Origin: Malacoraja senta
Taxonomy: Eukaryota
DNA: 64,000 bases
Reading direction: 5' to 3'
Assembly: GCA_038087875.1 (NCBI GenBank)
Contig: CM075990.1
Span: forward strand, 15,812,001-15,876,000
This document shows positions 15,289 through 45,532 of the stretch, piece after piece. The position numbers and the translations under genes were made by a program. How positions within the stretch are numbered: the first letter of the stretch is position 1; the number at the start of each line of letters is the position of its first letter. The notes under the pieces were generated by a model. That model saw only the letters and a list, made by a program, of their open reading frames with translations, was not told where the DNA came from and did not search any database.

Positions 15289-17015
15289 AGGGACAGTGTG
15301 TGTTTTGTTTGAAAGTATACGTTCCAAATAAATTAGCAATCACAGGACAACACATCCACATTAGAATGCTACAAGGTGCTCATAATATGAAGTGCCACGT
15401 GACAATAGTTTTAAGTGTTTTTAAATGCAATCGTTCATTGTGATTGAGTGGGCAGTTCCCATCTCTCCCAATCACCACTGAACGTGTATCAATCAACAGC
15501 AGCAATAAAAACACCCAGATCCTTCTCAGACCACATGATAATTGTAAACCTTCCAGACAGACGATGTTGATATCAATTTAACTAAAGTAAAGAATTGGAC
15601 CATGGCACCTTTGGGGGGGGGGGGGGGGGGCATATTCAGGGATGTGCGAGTTTCATCATTTAAAGCTGCGCAGAAAAAAAAATGCTAAAAAAAAATGTCC
15701 CACAGAAAATGGTGTATTTCCTGTTGCTTATCCCAGCTCATGCCATGTGGCAGTCAGTCCTCACTCAGTTGTCATGGAGCGGGGTGGGGGGGGGGCGGAA
15801 GTTGCAATAGAGGTGGGGTGCGGTTGCCATAGAGGGAGAGGACAGCAAGGATTCACCAAACCAATTCCTGGGATGGCTGGAATGGTGTACAACTGAGAAC
15901 CGGTCTGCCCGCCTTGTCTTGAGACACGAGGGACTACAGATGCTGGAATCTTGCTTGGAACAAAAAGTGCTGGGGTAACTCAGCGGGTCAGGCAGCATCT
16001 CCGCAGAACATGGATAGGTGACGATTCAGGTCGGGACCCTTCTTCGGACTACATTGATTCACTGTGGCTATGATGGCTCAAGTGCAGAGCAATTATAGGG
16101 GGCATGATTGAAAAGTGCAAAATTCGGACGGGGAGAGATGGGCTGGGTCTGGTTAGAGACTTAGAGCCAGGAGCAGAGTCTCAGGGTGCAGGGTAAGGCA
16201 GTTAGGACTGGGGTGAGGAAGAATCCCAGAGGCTCGTGCACCTGTAGGGTTCATAAAGGTCCTTAGGGGAACAGTCACAAAGGGCCTTGGATGTAATGTC
16301 ATCGATTACGTTTATGAAGGAGATAAACTGATTTCTAGACAAAATAAATGCAGCAAGACATAGGGGAATAGGGGAAACAATGCAAATTTGCCACTGGGTT
16401 AGAGGATCAGCATTGATTGTATTAAATGATACAGCAACTCAAGGAGGGTCAGACTGAAATGTTGGAAGTTTTTCCATTTCTGTTTCACACCTGGTCTGTT
16501 ATTCCAGTGCCTTAACCTCATCTGCTCTACTACAAACAGGCAGGCATCACATTTATACATTTATGGCTTTCTCATTGGGGCTGCGTGAACAAGTGTTAAA
16601 AGGTCACTTAGTGAAATCAAATTCCACGGTACCTTAATCGGTGCAAGTGGCAATAAATGTGAACTTGAACTTGGTCACTGCAATAACATAGCCTGACCCA
16701 TCCTTCACTGCACATCACGACTATATCAATATATTAACATATTATCAATATGAAAATATATTATAGCAGGACCACTTGACCCCTTGCCTGCCCCTGACAC
16801 TCTCTACTGAAACACTGCAACCCCCCCCCCCCCCCCCAGCCATAGATATTTGATGTAATCTCTTTTCATCACTTGAGTGCAAGGCAGAGTGATTTGGTCA
16901 CCTATCTTTGTCTCAGCCTAATATATCAATATATTAAAGAATAGATCAACTGGGCTGATACTGGAACTTAGAAGGATGAGAGGGTGTCTTACGGAAACAT
17001 ATAAAATTCTTAAGG

Positions 17016-17110: not shown

Positions 17111-17655
17111 AAAATTCTAAAGGGATTGGACAGGCTAAATGCAGGAAAATTGTTCTCCATGTCGGGGGAGTCTGGAACTAGGGGTCATAGTTTAAGAATA
17201 AGGGGTCGGCCATTTTGGACTGAGATGAGGAAAACGTTTTTCATCCAGAGAGTTGTGAATCTGTGGAATTCTCTGCCACAGAAGGTAGTGGAGGCCGATT
17301 CACTGGATGTTTTCAAGAGAGAGTTAGATATAGGTCTTAGGGTCAACAGAATCAAATGACATAGGGAGAAAGCAGGAACGGGGTACCAGGGCTGCCAACT
17401 CTCACGCTTTGAGCATGAGAATCACGCATTTGATCCAACTCTCACGCCCTCACGCTGATCAGAAATTTCTCACGCTCTGTGGTGAGAAATTCTGTGATCA
17501 ACGAACATTTCAAAACTCAGATAAACTGCATGGTCCGCAGGTGTTGGATAGCCGGGGCTGAGGGAGGGATGGAAGCAGTGGGCGGATCCAGATGCGGGGA
17601 GCCGGGGCTGGTGAGTGTTTGCTGGGCTGGCGAGTCGCTCGCTGCAGTTCCGGCC

Positions 17656-17736
17656 ATGGAGCAGCCCCAGTCCAAGAGTCCCGGGCCGTCGGAGGCGTCG
17701 GAAGCGTTGCGCAGCTGCCGTGAGAGTCTCTGTGCC
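17656..17736 (+). pseudogene. TDP2: Truncated copy of TDP2-like exon 1
   Basis: MEQPQSKSPGPSEASEALRSCRESLCA aligns with the 18888 copy and breaks off before the GA tract. Confidence 0.65.
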
Positions 17737-17749
17737 GAAAGGACAGACT

Positions 17750-18641
17750 CTCAAAGGGAGGTGGAGAGAGAGAGAGGGGGAAGGAGACGGAGACAGAGGG
17801 GAGAGAGAGGTGGTGAGAGGAGAGAGAGGGAAGAGACAGAGGGGGAGTGAATGGAGAGAGAGAAGAGGGAGAGGGGGGGAGAGAGAGGGGGGGAGAGTGA
17901 GGGGAGAGGGGGAAGAGAGAGAGGGGTGAGAGGGAAGAAAGAGGGAAGAGTAAGAGGGGGTGGAGAGGGAGGAGAGGGTAGGAGAGAATGGGAGAGGGAG
18001 GGGGAAGAGAGAGGGGTGGTAAAAGAGGGAGGGGGAAGAGGGAGAGAGGGGGAAAGAGAGAAACGGGGGGCAAAGAGAAAGAGGAGATAGAGAGAGGAGA
18101 AAGAAAGAGGGGAGAGAGAGCAAGGGGGAGAGTGAGGTGGGAGGGAGAAATGGGGTAGAGAGAGGGAGAGATGAGGAGAGAGGAGGAGGAGAGAGAGACG
18201 AGAGCGAGAGGGGGGAAGAGAGAGAGGTGAGAGAGAGAGAGGAGAGGGGAGAGTGTGTGGAGAGGGAGAGGGAGAGAAAGGGGGAGATAGAGAGGGAGGG
18301 AGAAAGAGAGAGAGGGGGGAGAGAGGGGAACAGAGGAGAGAGAGAGAGAAGGGGGAGAGAAGAGAGAGGGAAGGGGGGGAGACAGGGGAGAGAGAGGGGG
18401 TGAGAGGAGAGACAGAGAGAGAGGGGAGAGAGAGAGGGAAAAGAGAGGAGGAGGGGAGAGATAGAGGGGGAGAGAGAGAGAGGGGGGTTGAGAGGAGAGA
18501 GCGGAAGAGAGAGGGGAGAGAGAGAGAGAGGGGGATGAGAGTGAGGTGGGAGGGAAAGAGAGAGGGGAGAGAAAGAGAGGAGGAGAGAGAGAGAGGGGGA
18601 GAGAGAGAGGAGGAGAGGGGGGAGAGAGGGGGATAGAGAGG
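17750..18641. repeat. ~0.9-kb GA-rich polypurine low-complexity tract
   Basis: Almost exclusively g/a on the + strand. Confidence 0.95.
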
Positions 18642-18887
18642 CAGGGCTGCCAACTCCCATGCATTGAGCGACTGAGAATCACGCATTTCACCAAATTCTC
18701 ACGCTGATCACAAATTTCTCTCGCTCTGTTGTGAGAAATTCTGTGATCAACGAAAATGTCAAAACTCATATCCACTGCATGGGCCATGGGTGTTGGAAGC
18801 AGAAGCAGCGGCGGGGACAGATGCGGATGGGGAGCGGGGCTGGCGAGTGTTTGCCGGGCTGGCGAGTCGCTCACTGCAGCTCCGGCC

Positions 18888-19025
18888 ATGGAGCAGCCTC
18901 AGTGCAAGGCGTCGGAAGCGTTGCGCCGCTGCCGTGAGAGTCTCTGTGCCAAATTCGCTCAGGTGACCGGCATGGATCAGGCTGCGGCTCGGTGCATCCT
19001 GGAGGACAACCAGTGGCTGCTGGAA
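18888..19025 (+). pseudogene. TDP2: Captured TDP2-like first coding exon (UBA-like N-terminal domain), 46 codons
   Basis: Kozak ccggccATGg; RESLCAKFAQVTGMDQAAARCILEDNQWLLE resembles human TDP2 RRLLCVEFASVASCDAAVAQCFLAENDWEME (recalled); phase-0 donor GTAAGT at 19026-19031. Confidence 0.78.
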
Positions 19026-19129
19026 GTAAGTACCAAGCACTGGGTAGAAACGGTGGAAGATAGTGGACTTCAAATGGGGGTGGTTGGAGAAAGGATCCTG
19101 CTTGCCTGCTAAATTTTCACTTACTGTAA

Positions 19130-19477
19130 CTGCAGGAAAAATGTTCCCGATGTTGGGGGAGTTCAGAACCAGGGGTTACAGTTTAAGAATAAAGGGGGGG
19201 GGGGGCAGTTAGGACTGAGATGAGGACATACTTTCTTCACACAGCGAGTTGTGAATCTGTGGAATTCTCTGCCACAGAAGGCAGCGCAGGCCAATTCACT
19301 GGATGTTTTCAAGAGAGAGTTACATTTAGTTCTTGGGGCTAACGACATCAAGGGATATGGGGGAAAAACAGGAAAGAGGTACTGATTTTAGATGAATAGC
19401 CATGATCATATTGAATGGCAGTGTTGGCTTGAAGGGCCGAAGGCCTATTCCTGCACCTATTTTCTATGTTTCTATGC
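19130..19477 (+). mobile_element. CR1 3' fragment inside the TIR element
   Basis: tgcaggaaaaatgttcccgatg..gtgaatctgtggaattctctgcc..ttctatgtttctatg. Confidence 0.8.
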
Positions 19478-21004
19478 TTGAGTATATGGTAATAAAACTC
19501 GATCACTTGATTTTGAAACATTCATGCATGGTGGAGGTATAATATAGTCATAGAGTGATACAATGTGAAAACAGGCCTTCTGTGCAACTTGCCCACACCC
19601 GCCAACATGTCCCAGCTACGCTACCTGCTTTTGGTCCATACCTCCAAACCTGTCCTATCCATGTATCAGTCTAACTTGTTCTTAAATGTTGGGATGGTCC
19701 CTGCCTCAACTACCTCCTCTGGCAGCTTGTTCCATACACCCATCACCTTTTGTGTGGATAAAGTTACCCCTTAAAAAGTTACCTCTTAAAAATACTTCAT
19801 ACAAAAAACATTGAAATCATACTTCTACAATGCACTAAAACATGATTTTAGTACATCAAATTTCAAAAATTCCTACCCTGGGAGGGGGGGACACCCTTCT
19901 TCCACACCCTCTCCCCACTCGGTTGCTCCACTCCCTCACCGGGTACCCCCAAGGCCAGTGATCAGTGATTGCTCAGCCTCCCCCCTTTCAAAAATACTCC
20001 AATCCAACTTAAAGCATATATACTGCATTCAAGTGTAAGTTAAAAGGCTCGCTATGGTACAGTATGCACCATATTGCACAATTGCAAGCTGAAAAATGCA
20101 AAAGTTCCATACCAATGTGAGAGGGGACACCCTCCTCCCACACCCCCCCCCCCCCCCGGTCGCTATGCTCCCTCGGGCTTGGTCTCTTGCAATTTCTCAC
20201 TCCCAACTCTCACCCAATGTTGGCAGCCCTGGGGGTACTGATTTTGGATGATCAGCCATGATTATATTGAAAGACGGTGCTGGCTCGAAGGGCTGAAGGG
20301 CCTACTCCTGCACCTATTTTCTATGTTTCCATGTCAACACAAACTGTGACACGCGGCAATCTATGCGATCGTTCAAGTGTCTTTGCAAATTCTGCTTACT
20401 CCCGAGCTTGGCTGACCCAAGTGGTTTTCCACTGTTGTGACAGCCCTGAACTCAATTGCTTGTCGGTAAAATATACAACAGCTCTGCCATTATAGTGGCC
20501 CATTGTGTCAGTTTAAATATAAAACAACAGTATTAAGTGCAAATTACTCTCATATGGTGCCTCTCTTGATGTCACGAGCTTCCAAGAGCGGCATTGTTAA
20601 ATCAACTCATGTAGTAAACGGTACAATTAACAATAATATTTGCATTAACAGTATTTGTCATAACAAATCAGATTTTTTTTATCCCTTGCATTAGTCTTCA
20701 ATTGTGACACCACACTGTCTTCATGGATGATTGTTCTATAAACAAGAGTTTGCTTAACCCTGATTTACATGAGATAGAAAATATGTTATACAAGAATTGG
20801 TCTGCCAGCTCTGTCCACCAGTATTAACATAATGCAGGACGCCTCGCCTGCCCCTGACACACTACCCTCACACCCTACCCTGCAACACCACACCTCCCCC
20901 AGCCATAGATGTTGGATGTAACATCTTCTTATCACTTGAGTGCAAGGCACTCTATGATTTGTTCGCCTATCTTTGACTCAGCATAATGTGCAAAATTCAA
21001 GTTT

Positions 21005-41255: not shown

Positions 41256-44192
41256 TCAGTATCCCGTACCTGCCTTCTCTCCATACCCCCTGATCCCTTT
41301 AGTCACAAGGGCCACATCTAATTCCCTCTTAAATATAGCCAATGAACTGGCCTCAACTACCCTCTGTGGCAGAGAGTTCCAGAGATTCACCACTCTCTGT
41401 GTGAAAAAGTTTTTCCTCATCTCGGTCTTAAAGGATTTTCCCCTTATCCTTAAGCTGTGACCCCTTGTCCTGGACTTCCCCAACATCGGGAACAATCTTC
41501 CTGCATCTAGCCTGTCCAACCCCATAAGAATCTTGTACGTTTCTATAAGATCCCCTCTCAATCTCCTAAATTCTAGCGAGTATAAGCCAAGTCTATCCAG
41601 TCTTTCTTCATATGAAAGTCCTGACATCCCAGGAATCAGTCTGGTGAACCTTCTCTGCACTCCCTCTATGGCTATAATGTCCTTCCTCAGATTTGGAGAC
41701 CAAAACTGTACGCAATACTCCAGGTGTGGTCTCACCAAGACCCTGTACAACTGCAGTAGAACCTCACTGCTCCTATACTCAAATCCTCTTGCTATGAAGG
41801 CCAACATACCATTCGCTTTCTTCACTGCCTGCTGCACCTGCATGCCTACTTTCAATGACTGGTGTACCATGACACCCAGGTCTCGCTGCATCTCCCCATT
41901 TCCTAATCGGCCACCATTTAGATAATAGTCTGCCTTCCCGTTTTTGCTACCAAAGTGGATAACCTCACATTTATCCACATTATACTGCATCTGCCAAACA
42001 TTTGCCCACTCACCCAGCCTATCCAAGTCACCTTGCAGTCTCCTAGCATCCTCCTCACAGCTAACACTGCCCCCCAGCTTAGTGTCATCCGCAAACTTGG
42101 AGATGTTGCTTTCAATTCCCTCGTCCAGATCATTAATATAAATTGTAAATAGCTGGGGTCCCAGCACTGAGCCTTGTGGTACCCCACTAGTCACTGCCTG
42201 CCATTGTGAAAAGGACCCGTTTACTCCTACTCTTTGCTTCCTGTTTGCCAGCCAGTTTTCTATCCACATCAATACTGAACCCCCAATACCGTGTGATTTA
42301 AGTTTGTATCCTAATCTCTTATGTGGTACCTTGTCGAAAGCCTTCTGAAAGTCCAGATACAACACATCCACTGGTTCTCCCCTATCCACTCTACTAGTTA
42401 CATCCTCGAAAAATTCTATAAGATTCGTCAGACACGATTTACCTTTCGTAAATCCATGCTGACTTTGTCCAATGATTTCACCACTTTCCAAATGTGCTGC
42501 TATCCCATCTTTAATAACTGACTCTAGCAGTTTCCCCACTACCGATGTTAGACTAACTGGTCTGTAATTCCCCGTTTTCTCTCTCCCTCCCTTCTTAAAA
42601 AGTGGGGTTACGTTTGCTACCCTCCAATCCTCAGGAACTACTCCAGAATCTAAAGAGTTTTGAAAAATTATCACTAATGCATCCACTATTTCTGGAGCTA
42701 CTTCCTTAAGTACTCTGGGATGCAGCCTATCTGGCCCTGGTGATTTATCGGCCTTTAATCCATTCAATTTACCCAACACCACTTCCCGACTAACCTGGAT
42801 TTCACTCAGTTCCTCCATCTCCTTTGACCCGCGGCCCCCTGCTATTTCCGGCAGATTATTTATGTCTTCCTTAGTGAAGACGGAACCAAAGTAGTTATTC
42901 AATTGGTCTGCCATATCCTTGTTCCCCATGATCAATTCACCTGTTTCTGACTGCAAGGGACCTACATTTGATTTAACTAATCTCTTTCTCTTCACATATC
43001 TATAAAAACTTTTGCAGTCAGTTTTTATGTTCCCTGCCAGTTTCCTTTCATAATCTATTTTCCCTTTCCTAATTAAGCCCTTTGTCCTCCTCTGCTGGTC
43101 TCTGAATTTCTCCCAGTCCTCTGGTATGCTGCCTTTTCTGGCTAATTTGTACGCATCATCTTTTGCTTTGATACTATCCCTGATTTCCCTTGTTATCCAC
43201 GGATGCACTACCTTCCTTGATTTATTCTTTTGCCAAACTGGGATGAACAATTTTTGTAGTTCATCCATGCAGTCTTTAAATGCCTTCCATTGCATATCCA
43301 CCGTCAACCCTTTTAGAACTAATTGCCAGTCAATCTTGGCCAATTCATGTCTCATACCCTCAAAGTTACCTTTCTTTAAGTTCAGAACCGTTGTTTCTGA
43401 ATTAACAATGTCACTCTCCATCCTAATGAAGAACTCAACCATATTATGATCACTCTTGCCCAAGGGGGCACGCACAACGAGTCTGCTAACTAACCCTTCC
43501 TCATTACTCAATACCCAGTCTAGAATAGCCTGCTCTCTCGTTGGTTCCTCTACATGTTGGTTTAGATAACTATCCCTCATACATTCCAAGAAATCCTCTT
43601 CCTCAGCACCCCTGCCAATTTGATTCACCCAATCTATATGTAGATTGAAGTCACCCATTATAACTGTTTTGCCTTTGTTGCACGCATTTCTAATTTCCTG
43701 TTTGATGCCATCCCCAACTTCACTACTACTGCTAGGTGGCCTGTACACAACGCCCACCAGCGTTTTCTGCCCCTTAGTGTTTCGCAGCTCTACCCATACC
43801 GATTCCACATCCTCCAAGCTAATGTCCTTCCTTTCCACTGCGTTAATCTCCTCTCTAACCAGCAACGCCACCCCACCTCCTTTTCCTTTCTCTCTATCCC
43901 TCCTGAATATTGAATATCCCTGGATGTTCAGCTCCCAGCCTTGGTCACCTTGGAGCCATGTCTCCGTGATCCCAACTATATCATAATCATTAATTGCTAT
44001 CTGCACGTTCAACTCATCCACCTTATTACGAATGCTCCTTGCATTGAGACACAAAGCCTTCAGACTTGTTTTTACAACGCTCTTACCCCTTATACAATTA
44101 TGTTGAAAAGTGGCTCTTTTTGATTTTTGTCCTGGATTTGTCTGCCTGCCACTTTTACCTTTCACCTTGCTACCTATTGCTTCCGCCCGCAT
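41256..44192 (-). CDS. CR1 ORF2: APE endonuclease and reverse transcriptase (978 aa from first ATG; frame open from 44555)
   Basis: CLNARSIRNK, GITETW, VYRPP, MGDFN, SDH; NYRPVSLTS, LDFQKAFDKV, GVPQGSVLGP, FADDTK; no stops. Confidence 0.95.
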   Translation of the reverse strand: MRAEAIGSKVKGKSGRQTNPGQKSKRATFQHNCIRGKSVVKTSLKALCLNARSIRNKVDELNVQIAINDYDIVGITETWLQGDQGWELNIQGYSIFRRDREKGKGGGVALLVREEINAVERKDISLEDVESVWVELRNTKGQKTLVGVVYRPPSSSSEVGDGIKQEIRNACNKGKTVIMGDFNLHIDWVNQIGRGAEEEDFLECMRDSYLNQHVEEPTREQAILDWVLSNEEGLVSRLVVRAPLGKSDHNMVEFFIRMESDIVNSETTVLNLKKGNFEGMRHELAKIDWQLVLKGLTVDMQWKAFKDCMDELQKLFIPVWQKNKSRKVVHPWITREIRDSIKAKDDAYKLARKGSIPEDWEKFRDQQRRTKGLIRKGKIDYERKLAGNIKTDCKSFYRYVKRKRLVKSNVGPLQSETGELIMGNKDMADQLNNYFGSVFTKEDINNLPEIAGGRGSKEMEELSEIQVSREVVLGKLNGLKADKSPGPDRLHPRVLKEVAPEIVDALVIIFQNSLDSGVVPEDWRVANVTPLFKKGGREKTGNYRPVSLTSVVGKLLESVIKDGIAAHLESGEIIGQSQHGFTKGKSCLTNLIEFFEDVTSRVDRGEPVDVLYLDFQKAFDKVPHKRLGYKLKSHGIGGSVLMWIENWLANRKQRVGVNGSFSQWQAVTSGVPQGSVLGPQLFTIYINDLDEGIESNISKFADDTKLGGSVSCEEDARRLQGDLDRLGEWANVWQMQYNVDKCEVIHFGSKNGKADYYLNGGRLGNGEMQRDLGVMVHQSLKVGMQVQQAVKKANGMLAFIARGFEYRSSEVLLQLYRVLVRPHLEYCVQFWSPNLRKDIIAIEGVQRRFTRLIPGMSGLSYEERLDRLGLYSLEFRRLRGDLIETYKILMGLDRLDAGRLFPMLGKSRTRGHSLRIRGKSFKTEMRKNFFTQRVVNLWNSLPQRVVEASSLAIFKRELDVALVTKGIRGYGEKAGTGY

Positions 44193-44371
44193 TTTACACC
44201 CCTCTGTTTCTCTGCTCACCCATTTAAGAACCCCACCACCTCTTATTCTCTGTTTATTATTGTTTTCTTCTTTCCCCCCTACATGTTGGGTCTGAGTGCT
44301 TTCCTTCTCTGCCTCCTGCCTCACACACTGTCTAATAGCATTCTCTATTTGAGTCCCTCCCCCCAACCATT

Positions 44372-45307
44372 CTAGTTTAAAGTCTCCCCAGTAGCCTTTG
44401 CAGATCTCCCCGCCAGGATATCGGTCCCCCTCAGGTTCAAGTGCAACCCATCCTTTTTGTACAGGTCGAACCTTCCACAAAAGAAGTCCCAATGATCCAG
44501 AAATTTGAATCCCTGCCTTCTGCACCAGTCCTTCAGCCACGCATTTATCCTCCACCTCGCTCCATTCCTACTCTCACTGTCGCGTGGTACAGGCAGTAAT
44601 CCCGAGATTGTTACCTTTGCTGTCCTTCTCTTTAACTCCCCTCCTAACTCCCTAAATTCTCCTTTCAGGACCTCTTCTCTTTTTTTACCTATGTCATTGG
44701 TACCTATATGTATCACGACCTCGGGCTCCTCTCCCTGCCCTTTCAGGATGTCTTGGACACGTTGGGACACATCACAGACCCTGGCACCAGGGAGGCAAAC
44801 TACCATCCGGGTCTCCCGACTGCGTCCACAGAATCGCCTGTCTGACCCCCTAACTATAGAGTCCCCTATTAATATTGCCCTCCTCTTCTTTTCCTTACCC
44901 TTCTGAGCAACAGGACCGGTCTCTATACCGGAGGCCCGGCCGCTGTCGCTACCCCCAGGTAGGCTGTCCACCCCAACAGTGCTCAAACAGGAGTACTTAT
45001 TGTCAAGGTGTACAGCCACCGGGGTACTCTCTAGTCCCTGCCTGTGCCCCTTGCCTCTCCCAACCGTGATCCACTTGCCTGCCTCCTGTGGTGTTGGAGT
45101 GACCACATCCCTGTAACTCCTCTCAATGACTTCCTCGCTCTCCCTGACCAGACGGAGGTCATCGAGCTGCTGCTCCAGGTTCCTAATACGGTCCATTAGG
45201 AGCCCCATCTCGATACACCTGGCGCAGATGTGGACGTCTGGAGGGCTAACAGACTCCATGACTTCCCACATCTGACATCCAGAACAGTAAACTGCCCTGG
45301 CCGTCAT
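44372..45307 (-). CDS. CR1 ORF1: zinc finger, coiled coil and SGNH/GDSL esterase domain (311 aa)
   Basis: CSGC..CARC; LMDRIRNLEQQLDDL; IGDSIVRG, PGA, HIGTND, DGLHL. Confidence 0.92.
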   Translation of the reverse strand: MTARAVYCSGCQMWEVMESVSPPDVHICARCIEMGLLMDRIRNLEQQLDDLRLVRESEEVIERSYRDVVTPTPQEAGKWITVGRGKGHRQGLESTPVAVHLDNKYSCLSTVGVDSLPGGSDSGRASGIETGPVAQKGKEKKRRAILIGDSIVRGSDRRFCGRSRETRMVVCLPGARVCDVSQRVQDILKGQGEEPEVVIHIGTNDIGKKREEVLKGEFRELGGELKRRTAKVTISGLLPVPRDSESRNGARWRINAWLKDWCRRQGFKFLDHWDFFCGRFDLYKKDGLHLNLRGTDILAGRSAKATGETLN

Positions 45308-45332
45308 ACTCCCCTTACCCTGGATAGAATAT

Positions 45333-45532
45333 AAAACAAACTGCTACAATACAAAACAAACTGCTACAATACAAAACAAACTGCTACAATACAAAACAAA
45401 CTGCTACAATACAAAACAAACTGCTACAATACAAAACAAACTGCTACAATACAAAACAAACTGCTACAATACAAAACAAACTGCTACAATACAAAACAAA
45501 CTGCTACAATACAAAACAAACTGCTACAATAC
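45333..45532. repeat. 10 x 20-bp tandem repeat in the CR1 5' UTR
   Basis: (aaaacaaactgctacaatac)10. Confidence 0.95.

What the first reader, a model, noticed from the sequence alone, without database searches (positions are those of the whole stretch)
17387..20231. Pack-type DNA transposon that captured TDP2-like exon 1: a mobile ATG + UBA domain + splice-donor cassette
Seen: perfect 13-bp TIRs, a 7-bp TSD (ggggtac; a 14-bp TIR with 5-bp TSD reading also fits) and subterminal TCTCAC repeats. The element splits a CR1 fragment that rejoins seamlessly, so it transposed as a unit, and it has no transposase. Its cargo is a CpG-rich leader, a strong Kozak ATG (18888), 46 intact codons, a GTAAGT donor and intron-like DNA with old CR1 pieces. 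Established, from recall: the peptide resembles the N-terminal UBA-like domain of TDP2, the 5'-tyrosyl-DNA phosphodiesterase, and the donor falls where I recall vertebrate exon 1 ending. I saw no TDP2 catalytic-domain exons in the window. Inference: transduplication as in Pack-MULE/Pack-TIR elements. The cassette could act as a natural exon trap that fuses a ubiquitin-binding module to downstream exons, or yield TDP2-homologous RNAs.
Basis: partly seen in the sequence, partly recalled or inferred. Interest (0 to 1): 0.9.

Follow-up and report, generated by a model that had tools for sequence, protein, structure and literature searches.

The report
Skate transposon carrying tdp2 first exon
A jumping DNA element in a skate- or ray-like fish picked up the first exon of a DNA-repair gene and spread it to hundreds of places in the genome, where the copies appear to be decaying passengers rather than working gene parts.

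Summary
Window 17387-20231 is a non-autonomous DNA transposon with 13-bp inverted ends and a 7-bp target duplication. About 1 kb of its interior is unspliced genomic DNA from the host tdp2 gene: leader, exon 1 and the start of intron 1. The parent gene lies on another contig (C19), as a tandem pair with no such ends near exon 1. The cargo was amplified widely: 719 near-exact copies of the exon end plus donor, and 1,539 right ends. The functional reading is not supported. The exon encodes only about two thirds of the UBA domain and lacks the helix-3 ubiquitin contact. Copies evolve neutrally (20 synonymous of 75 changes; 18.7 expected), and 4 of 29 are broken. The only spliced junction seen at the donor leads to tdp2 exon 2. 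The mobilising transposase was not found (P-like or hAT-like). Verdict: a multicopy Pack-TIR, a known kind, at a copy number far above the published vertebrate cases I read.

The parts
17380..17386 (.). left 7-bp target-site duplication
   Evidence: family-wide 7-bp duplications
17387..17399 (+). outer left 13-bp TIR (the end used in the last transposition)
   Evidence: 1,314 exact 21-mer left ends in the genome, reversed control 0
17400..17540 (+). outer left subterminal region with CTCACG repeats
17544..17740 (+). first, truncated tdp2-derived piece: leader and 5' part of exon 1 (ATG 17656), no donor
   Evidence: aligns to host locus and to the inner unit; no Pfam hit
17741..18641 (+). GA-rich tract between the two units
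   Evidence: present before the inner left end in 28 of 30 closest copies
18642..18775 (+). inner second left end (TIR 18642-18654 plus subterminal repeats)
18783..18887 (+). captured tdp2 leader (CpG-rich); about 82% to both host copies over the aligned part
18888..19025 (+). captured tdp2 exon 1 coding part, 46 codons, N-terminal two thirds of the UBA domain
   Evidence: exon end confirmed by the exon 1-exon 2 junction in RNA-like contigs
19026..19031 (+). splice donor GTAAGT (both host copies have GTAGGT)
19032..19771 (+). captured start of tdp2 intron 1 with its old repeat fragments in host order
   Evidence: colinear with the host intron at 79-89%
19772..20218 (+). right subterminal region; its last 230 bp are shared with family members that carry other cargo
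20219..20231 (+). right 13-bp TIR
   Evidence: 1,539 right-end 24-mers at up to 1 mismatch, control 0
20232..20238 (.). right 7-bp target-site duplication

Best explanation
A non-autonomous cut-and-paste DNA transposon took up about 1 kb of the genomic tdp2 5' region as DNA (shown: the intron and its old repeats are retained). It probably did so by template switching during repair or replication (inferred from PMC8277862's models; not tested). A transposase acting in trans and making 7-bp staggered cuts then copied it to hundreds of sites (amplification and 7-bp duplications shown; enzyme not identified). The capture predates the tandem duplication of tdp2 on C19. Later a left-end module with a truncated exon and a GA tract was stacked in front, and the compound form spread using its outermost ends. 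The exon is a neutral passenger: only the termini are needed to move, and the coding piece decays like the rest.
For: Parent: the 5 matches confined to residues 85-360 of skate TDP2, of 113 scored, all lie on C19, while the other 108 match from residue 1; exon 2 motif exact at C19:4701912 and with 1 mismatch at C19:4641361. No TIR in 10 kb around host exon 1 A or 1.9 kb around B. Copies: 719 matches of the exon-end/donor 27-mer; 40 scored of 2,663 candidates at 95-100%; 9 different 7-bp duplications. Timing: hosts A and B are 96.7% alike and group at 100/99, while most copies are 85-92% to A. Neutrality: 20 synonymous of 75 changes against 18.7 +/- 3.5 expected, 4 of 29 copies with stop or frameshift, and 22 of 29 carry Q at codon 38 where both host copies and skate TDP2 have L. 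No transposase: 0 of 102 frames from five other-cargo members and L070 hit Pfam; no P-transposase match in the family loci.
Against: The neutrality test covers only the 30 copies closest to this one (one near-duplicate dropped), so a few selected copies among hundreds would be missed. The autonomous partner was not found. The donor is GTAAGT in 30 of 30 close copies against GTAGGT in the host, a step toward the consensus, though one founder mutation explains it. L066 groups with the hosts at moderate support and shows no TIR in its held flanks, so some exon copies may have another origin.
Confidence: 0.85

Rival explanations
1. The cassette is a dispersed alternative first exon: some copies, inserted in genes or beside promoters, splice from the retained donor to host exons and give chimeric mRNAs or proteins that are kept by selection.
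For: At least 719 copies keep the exon end and donor nearly intact. The leader and exon are CpG-rich (observed/expected 0.75, against 0.50 for the window). Some subfamilies hold an extra 57 bp of upstream host DNA. Pack-TIRs in other animals often form chimeric RNAs (PMC8277862, section 10).
Against: In four RNA-like runs the only loose end shown at the donor reads into tdp2 exon 2 (X1, X2), and contigs in X2, X5 and X6 cross the donor unspliced; 20 of 71 loose-end rows were shown and the runs may be DNA. Two protein searches found only read-through frames, TDP2 itself and one unrelated repeat protein. The UBA lacks most of helix 3 with its ubiquitin contact. Neutral decay; three out-of-frame upstream ATGs in this copy.
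Confidence: 0.12
2. The mobiliser is a P-superfamily (Galileo-like) transposase, possibly the young THAP-P family in this genome.
For: Galileo makes mostly 7-bp and sometimes 8-bp duplications (PMC4168063, passages), as here. The genome holds at least 150 P-transposase matches; 4 of 4 fetched copies are 97-98% alike with open frames of 642-790 codons.
Against: The ends of that P unit lie outside the 6-kb stretches held. The one family-type end inside it sits in an intron and points away from the gene, which looks like a nested insertion. No shared subterminal sequence with the family loci was seen beyond common repeats.
Confidence: 0.3
3. The mobiliser is a hAT-type transposase with a 7-bp cut (Blackjack-like or hATw-like; the likeness of this TIR and its short subterminal repeats to those groups is recalled, from no call).
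For: hAT groups with 5-, 6- and 7-bp duplications exist, and hAT5/hAT6 sit in the animal lineage with Blackjack (PMC12730594, section 12). Short TIRs with repeated subterminal hexamers fit hAT anatomy (own knowledge). 1,648 hAT dimerisation-domain candidates in the genome.
Against: 0 of 10 hAT loci sampled from 150 listed showed this right TIR within 0.6-0.9 kb. The 7-bp hAT7 group in that paper is fungal.
Confidence: 0.5
4. The copies are a source of small RNAs or antisense RNA that act on tdp2 in trans.
For: Hundreds of copies at about 90% identity to the 5' end of tdp2; tdp2 was duplicated after the capture.
Against: No small-RNA, strand or methylation data were seen; the duplication may be unrelated.
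Confidence: 0.08

Closest known systems
Multicopy animal Pack-TIRs (Tan et al. 2021, PMC8277862; abstract and sections 7, 9, 10 read; 12 supplements searched)
   Same: TIR element with internal host DNA, parent elsewhere, distinct target duplications, recurrent transposition; the frog case also took a gene's 5' end.
   Different: That survey found four multicopy cases in reference genomes, the frog example with three copies and a median cargo of 224 bp. Here the cargo is about 1 kb with a coding exon, in at least 719 copies, with stacked left-end modules. Its only shark entry (elephant shark) had 0 Pack-TIRs, and TDP2 and skate do not occur in its supplements.
Fungal hAT element carrying histone H3 (PMC6710886; abstract only)
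   Same: A host coding sequence amplified to hundreds of copies by a TIR element and then inactivated.
   Different: Fungal; decay by RIP; here a first exon with intron, decaying neutrally, and no transposase in the element.
Plant Pack-MULEs (own knowledge; PMC5861414 seen as a search listing only)
   Same: Capture of GC-rich 5' gene fragments as genomic DNA, with several cargo pieces in one element.
   Different: MULEs have long TIRs and 9-11-bp duplications (recalled); here 13-bp TIRs and 7-bp duplications.
TDP2 UBA domain (PMC5137425, passages; PDB 6q00)
   Same: The peptide is homologous to its first two helices.
   Different: It stops three residues after the conserved Trp of the helix 2-3 loop; most of helix 3, with the aromatic residue needed for ubiquitin binding, is in exon 2 and was not captured.

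Membership tests
Pack-TIR (multicopy) | TIRs at both ends and a target-site duplication | tested here: met
Pack-TIR (multicopy) | Interior copied from a host locus that lies elsewhere and lacks the TIRs | tested here: met
Pack-TIR (multicopy) | Several dispersed copies with different target duplications | tested here: met
Pack-TIR (multicopy) | Capture as DNA (intron kept), not as a processed RNA copy | tested here: met
   intron 1 colinear with host
Pack-TIR (multicopy) | Empty orthologous site in a relative | not testable with these tools
   no relatives held; the split LINE piece rejoins
P superfamily (Galileo-like) | 7-8-bp target duplication | tested here: met
P superfamily (Galileo-like) | Autonomous partner with the same TIRs around a THAP-P transposase | tested here: inconclusive
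   P unit found but its ends are not held
hAT superfamily | Usual 8-bp target duplication | tested here: not met
   8 bp in 1 of 16 pairs; 5-7-bp subgroups exist
hAT superfamily | Autonomous partner with the same TIRs around a hAT transposase | tested here: inconclusive
   0 of 10 sampled loci, from 150 listed and 1,648 candidates
Functional TDP2-type UBA domain | Complete helical bundle with the helix-3 aromatic ubiquitin contact | tested here: not met
   profile positions 2-30 of 43 against 2-39 for full TDP2; role of Phe62 from PMC5137425; placing that residue in exon 2 is my inference
Exapted (domesticated) exon | Purifying selection on the reading frame | tested here: not met
   29 closest copies only
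Exapted (domesticated) exon | Spliced chimeric transcripts | tested here: inconclusive
   none among 20 of 71 loose-end rows shown; contigs only, RNA status a guess

The most novel reading that the evidence does not exclude
A vertebrate TIR family that repeatedly takes up CpG-rich gene starts and stacks them as left-end modules has seeded about a thousand ATG-plus-donor cassettes through skate and ray genomes; some of these now serve as alternative first exons or silence tdp2 in trans, and the family is moved by a still-intact vertebrate P-type transposase.
Probability: 0.12. Interest if true: 0.8.

Novelty: new member of a known kind. Interest (0 to 1): 0.5.

Why it matters
Gene-fragment capture by cut-and-paste transposons is thought to be rare and low-copy in vertebrates. 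This case has a named parent gene, a datable capture, hundreds of copies, and related sequence in runs of seven organism labels. It is therefore a ready test set for whether captured first exons with intact donors ever become alternative gene starts, or feed small RNAs against their parent. It also warns that tdp2-like hits in skate and ray assemblies are mostly repeats.

Tried and rejected
The 14-bp TIR/5-bp duplication reading: rejected. The window as the true tdp2 exon 1: rejected, the parent is on C19, and none of 29 long window frames scanned outside the element matched TDP2's catalytic part other than a LINE endonuclease. A processed-RNA origin: rejected, the intron is kept. PF03372 across the genome returned mostly LINE-length frames and did not locate tdp2. 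Other cargo: 0 of 102 frames hit Pfam, so their parents are unknown. P0006 is an unrelated tandem-repeat protein. Intron divergence figures are inflated by deletions in some copies; I use the BLAST figures. L009, L016, L027 and L067 look distant, probably because of deletions within the slice. Two look-ups of earlier findings returned nothing. Paper searches for this element or TIR (term search of one elasmobranch genome preprint) found no description; Repbase and Dfam were not searchable, so the repeat may be catalogued there. PMC5753468 (passages) gave nothing on target duplications and lists MER53 under Mariner, against my recall.

Full report
Observation. The 13-bp TIR begins at 17387 and its complement ends at 20231; GGGGTAC lies on both sides, and the flanks joined over one copy align without a gap to another copy of the same LINE piece. 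The frame from 18888 is open for 46 codons before GTAAGT. It matches PF14555 above the cut-off, the TDP2 UBA structure 6q00 and a skate TDP2 at 76%. That last hit is the basis for calling the host a skate- or ray-like fish. The window is C14:15,812,001-15,876,000 of a 1.94-Gb assembly.

There is a second left TIR at 18642. The stretch 17387-17740 is an older left end with a leader and a truncated copy of the same exon, followed by 0.9 kb of GA repeats. The GA tract precedes the inner left end in 28 of the 30 closest copies, and the truncated ATG piece was seen in 22 of 30 within the 1.5 kb held. The target duplication brackets the outermost ends, so the compound moves as one unit.

It is a large family. 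A search with the inner unit gave 2,663 first-look candidates, of which 40 were scored, at 95-100%; candidates are not copy numbers. Pattern counts are whole: 1,314 exact left-end 21-mers, 1,539 right-end 24-mers at up to one mismatch, and 719 exon-end/donor 27-mers at up to one mismatch, with reversed controls at 0. Of 16 left/right pairs held, 10 have an exact 7-bp duplication (9 different sequences; L003 and L024 share one), one has 8 bp, one 6 bp, and four none, one of those not a true pair. Of the first 30 listed left ends on C1, 5 are followed directly by tdp2-derived DNA; the others carry different cargo, often with several left ends in series.

The parent. Searching with skate TDP2, the 5 matches confined to residues 85-360, of 113 scored, all lie on C19 at 4.60-4.70 Mb; the other 108 match from residue 1. 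Exon 1 lies at C19:4.712 Mb, exon 2 at 4.702 Mb, and a second set at 4.646 and 4.641 Mb shows a tandem duplicate. No TIR was found in 10 kb around exon 1 of copy A or 1.9 kb around copy B. The cargo follows the host in order: leader about 82%, exon 94%, intron 89%, ending near 19771. An intron with its old repeats means capture as DNA. Hosts A and B are 96.7% alike and form a clade at 100/99 in a tree of 23 chosen copies (8 of the 30 closest, plus L066-L080); most copies are 85-92% to A, so the capture came before the duplication (the bootstrap had not fully settled). The stretch is also held by 24 listed runs from 12 studies and 7 organism labels, which suggests sharing among related species; only four of these runs were laid.

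Does the exon do anything? First, it is not a whole UBA domain. It covers profile positions 2-30 of 43, against 2-39 for full TDP2. PMC5137425 (passages) places ubiquitin contacts on helices 1 and 3, with Phe62 at the end of helix 3 critical, and the conserved Trp in the helix 2-3 loop; the peptide ends three residues after that Trp. Second, the copies decay. In 29 of the 30 closest copies (L024 dropped as a near-duplicate), 20 of 75 changes are synonymous, against 18.7 +/- 3.5 under a context-matched neutral draw; 4 of 29 have a stop or frameshift. Exon, leader and intron are equally conserved among copies (median 96-97%). This copy has three out-of-frame ATGs upstream of 18888, where host A has one in frame and host B none. 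Third, in four laid runs (contigs; RNA status a guess, X1 probably DNA), one contig each in X1 and X2 leaves the reference at the donor and continues into tdp2 exon 2, which confirms the exon boundary; contigs in X2, X5 and X6 cross it unspliced. No other junction at the donor was among the 20 of 71 loose-end rows shown. Two protein searches returned only read-through frames, TDP2 and one unrelated repeat protein; both are weak for such a short query. In favour of latent potential: the donor is GTAAGT in 30 of 30 close copies and 8 of 15 others, against GTAGGT in both hosts, and hundreds of donors remain intact.

Mechanism. Shown: DNA-level capture of the tdp2 5' region, amplification with 7-bp duplications, stacking of a second left module, neutral decay. 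Inferred: capture by template switching during repair or replication, as modelled in PMC8277862 (section 9), and stacking by nested insertion or recombination between family members; L052 has another cargo, the same GA tract and the same inner left end. Unknown: the transposase. Galileo, a P-superfamily element, makes mostly 7-bp duplications (PMC4168063, passages), and this genome has a young THAP-P family (150 matches listed of 300 candidates; 4 fetched copies 97-98% alike). Its ends lie beyond the DNA held, and the family-type end inside it is intronic and points away. hAT groups with 5-7-bp duplications also exist (PMC12730594, section 12), but 0 of 10 sampled hAT loci had this TIR. The same left end occurs in 5 metagenome contigs that look like fish DNA by my reading, without a visible transposase.

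Comparison and novelty. Every Pack-TIR feature that could be tested is met. PMC8277862 found only four multicopy Pack-TIRs in its reference genomes, the frog example with three copies (section 7); its supplements list elephant shark with 0 and do not mention TDP2 or skate. A fungal hAT element amplified histone H3 to hundreds of copies (PMC6710886, abstract). So the kind is known; the scale in a vertebrate, the coding cargo and the stacked modules are what stand out. The paper searches found no description of this element; Repbase and Dfam could not be checked, and the supplements of bioRxiv preprints were not seen. Verdict: real, well supported, most likely a selfish element with a neutral passenger. 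Interest 0.5.

Noticed in passing
G000:C19:4.60-4.71 Mb (L061-L065, L081, L091): tdp2 is tandemly duplicated (exon 1 regions 96.7% alike; exon 2 and the two last exons each seen twice); the duplication postdates the capture. Whether both copies are complete was not checked.
   Followed up: partly
L082-L085 (e.g. G000:C1:237,358,900-237,364,900): A young multicopy THAP-P transposase unit, 97-98% identical between 4 fetched copies, with open frames up to 790 codons and at least 150 matches, many on small contigs; the unit is longer than 6 kb and its ends were not seen. A young multicopy P family in a vertebrate may deserve its own look.
   Followed up: partly
L044, L045, L052, L054, L057, L058: Another cargo of the same TIR family looks like a gene start: a CRE-like TGACGTC motif, a reversed CCAAT-like box, then an ATG and a possible donor (motif names recalled). 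Parent unknown; no Pfam hit.
   Followed up: partly
L031, L032, L033, L046, L049, L053: A third, CpG-rich cargo of 300-400 bp in the same family; parent unknown; no Pfam hit in L031 or L046.
   Followed up: partly
L070:1000-1330: A subfamily with about 330 extra bases between the left end and the tdp2 piece, holding an octamer-like ATGCAAAT motif (name recalled); may be a further captured promoter or part of the autonomous element.
   Followed up: partly
L066 (G000:C5:40.74 Mb): A tdp2 exon 1 copy that keeps host-type sequence, groups with the host copies at 91/93 and shows no TIR in its held flanks; possibly an early or separate capture.
   Followed up: no
L086-L090: The same left-end 20-mer occurs in five metagenome contigs that look like bony-fish DNA (one with kinase exons, by eye), so the TIR family is not limited to this genome.
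   Followed up: partly
window 41256-45343 (-): A near-full LINE with an esterase-type ORF1 (323 aa) and an endonuclease/reverse-transcriptase ORF2 (1,103 aa).
   Followed up: no
window 16778-16886 and 20838-20949: Two copies of another short repeat, 77-85% alike, flank the insertion region about 4 kb apart.
   Followed up: no
L092-L101: Several distinct hAT families, in pieces, are present in the genome; none showed the TIR of this element.
   Followed up: partly
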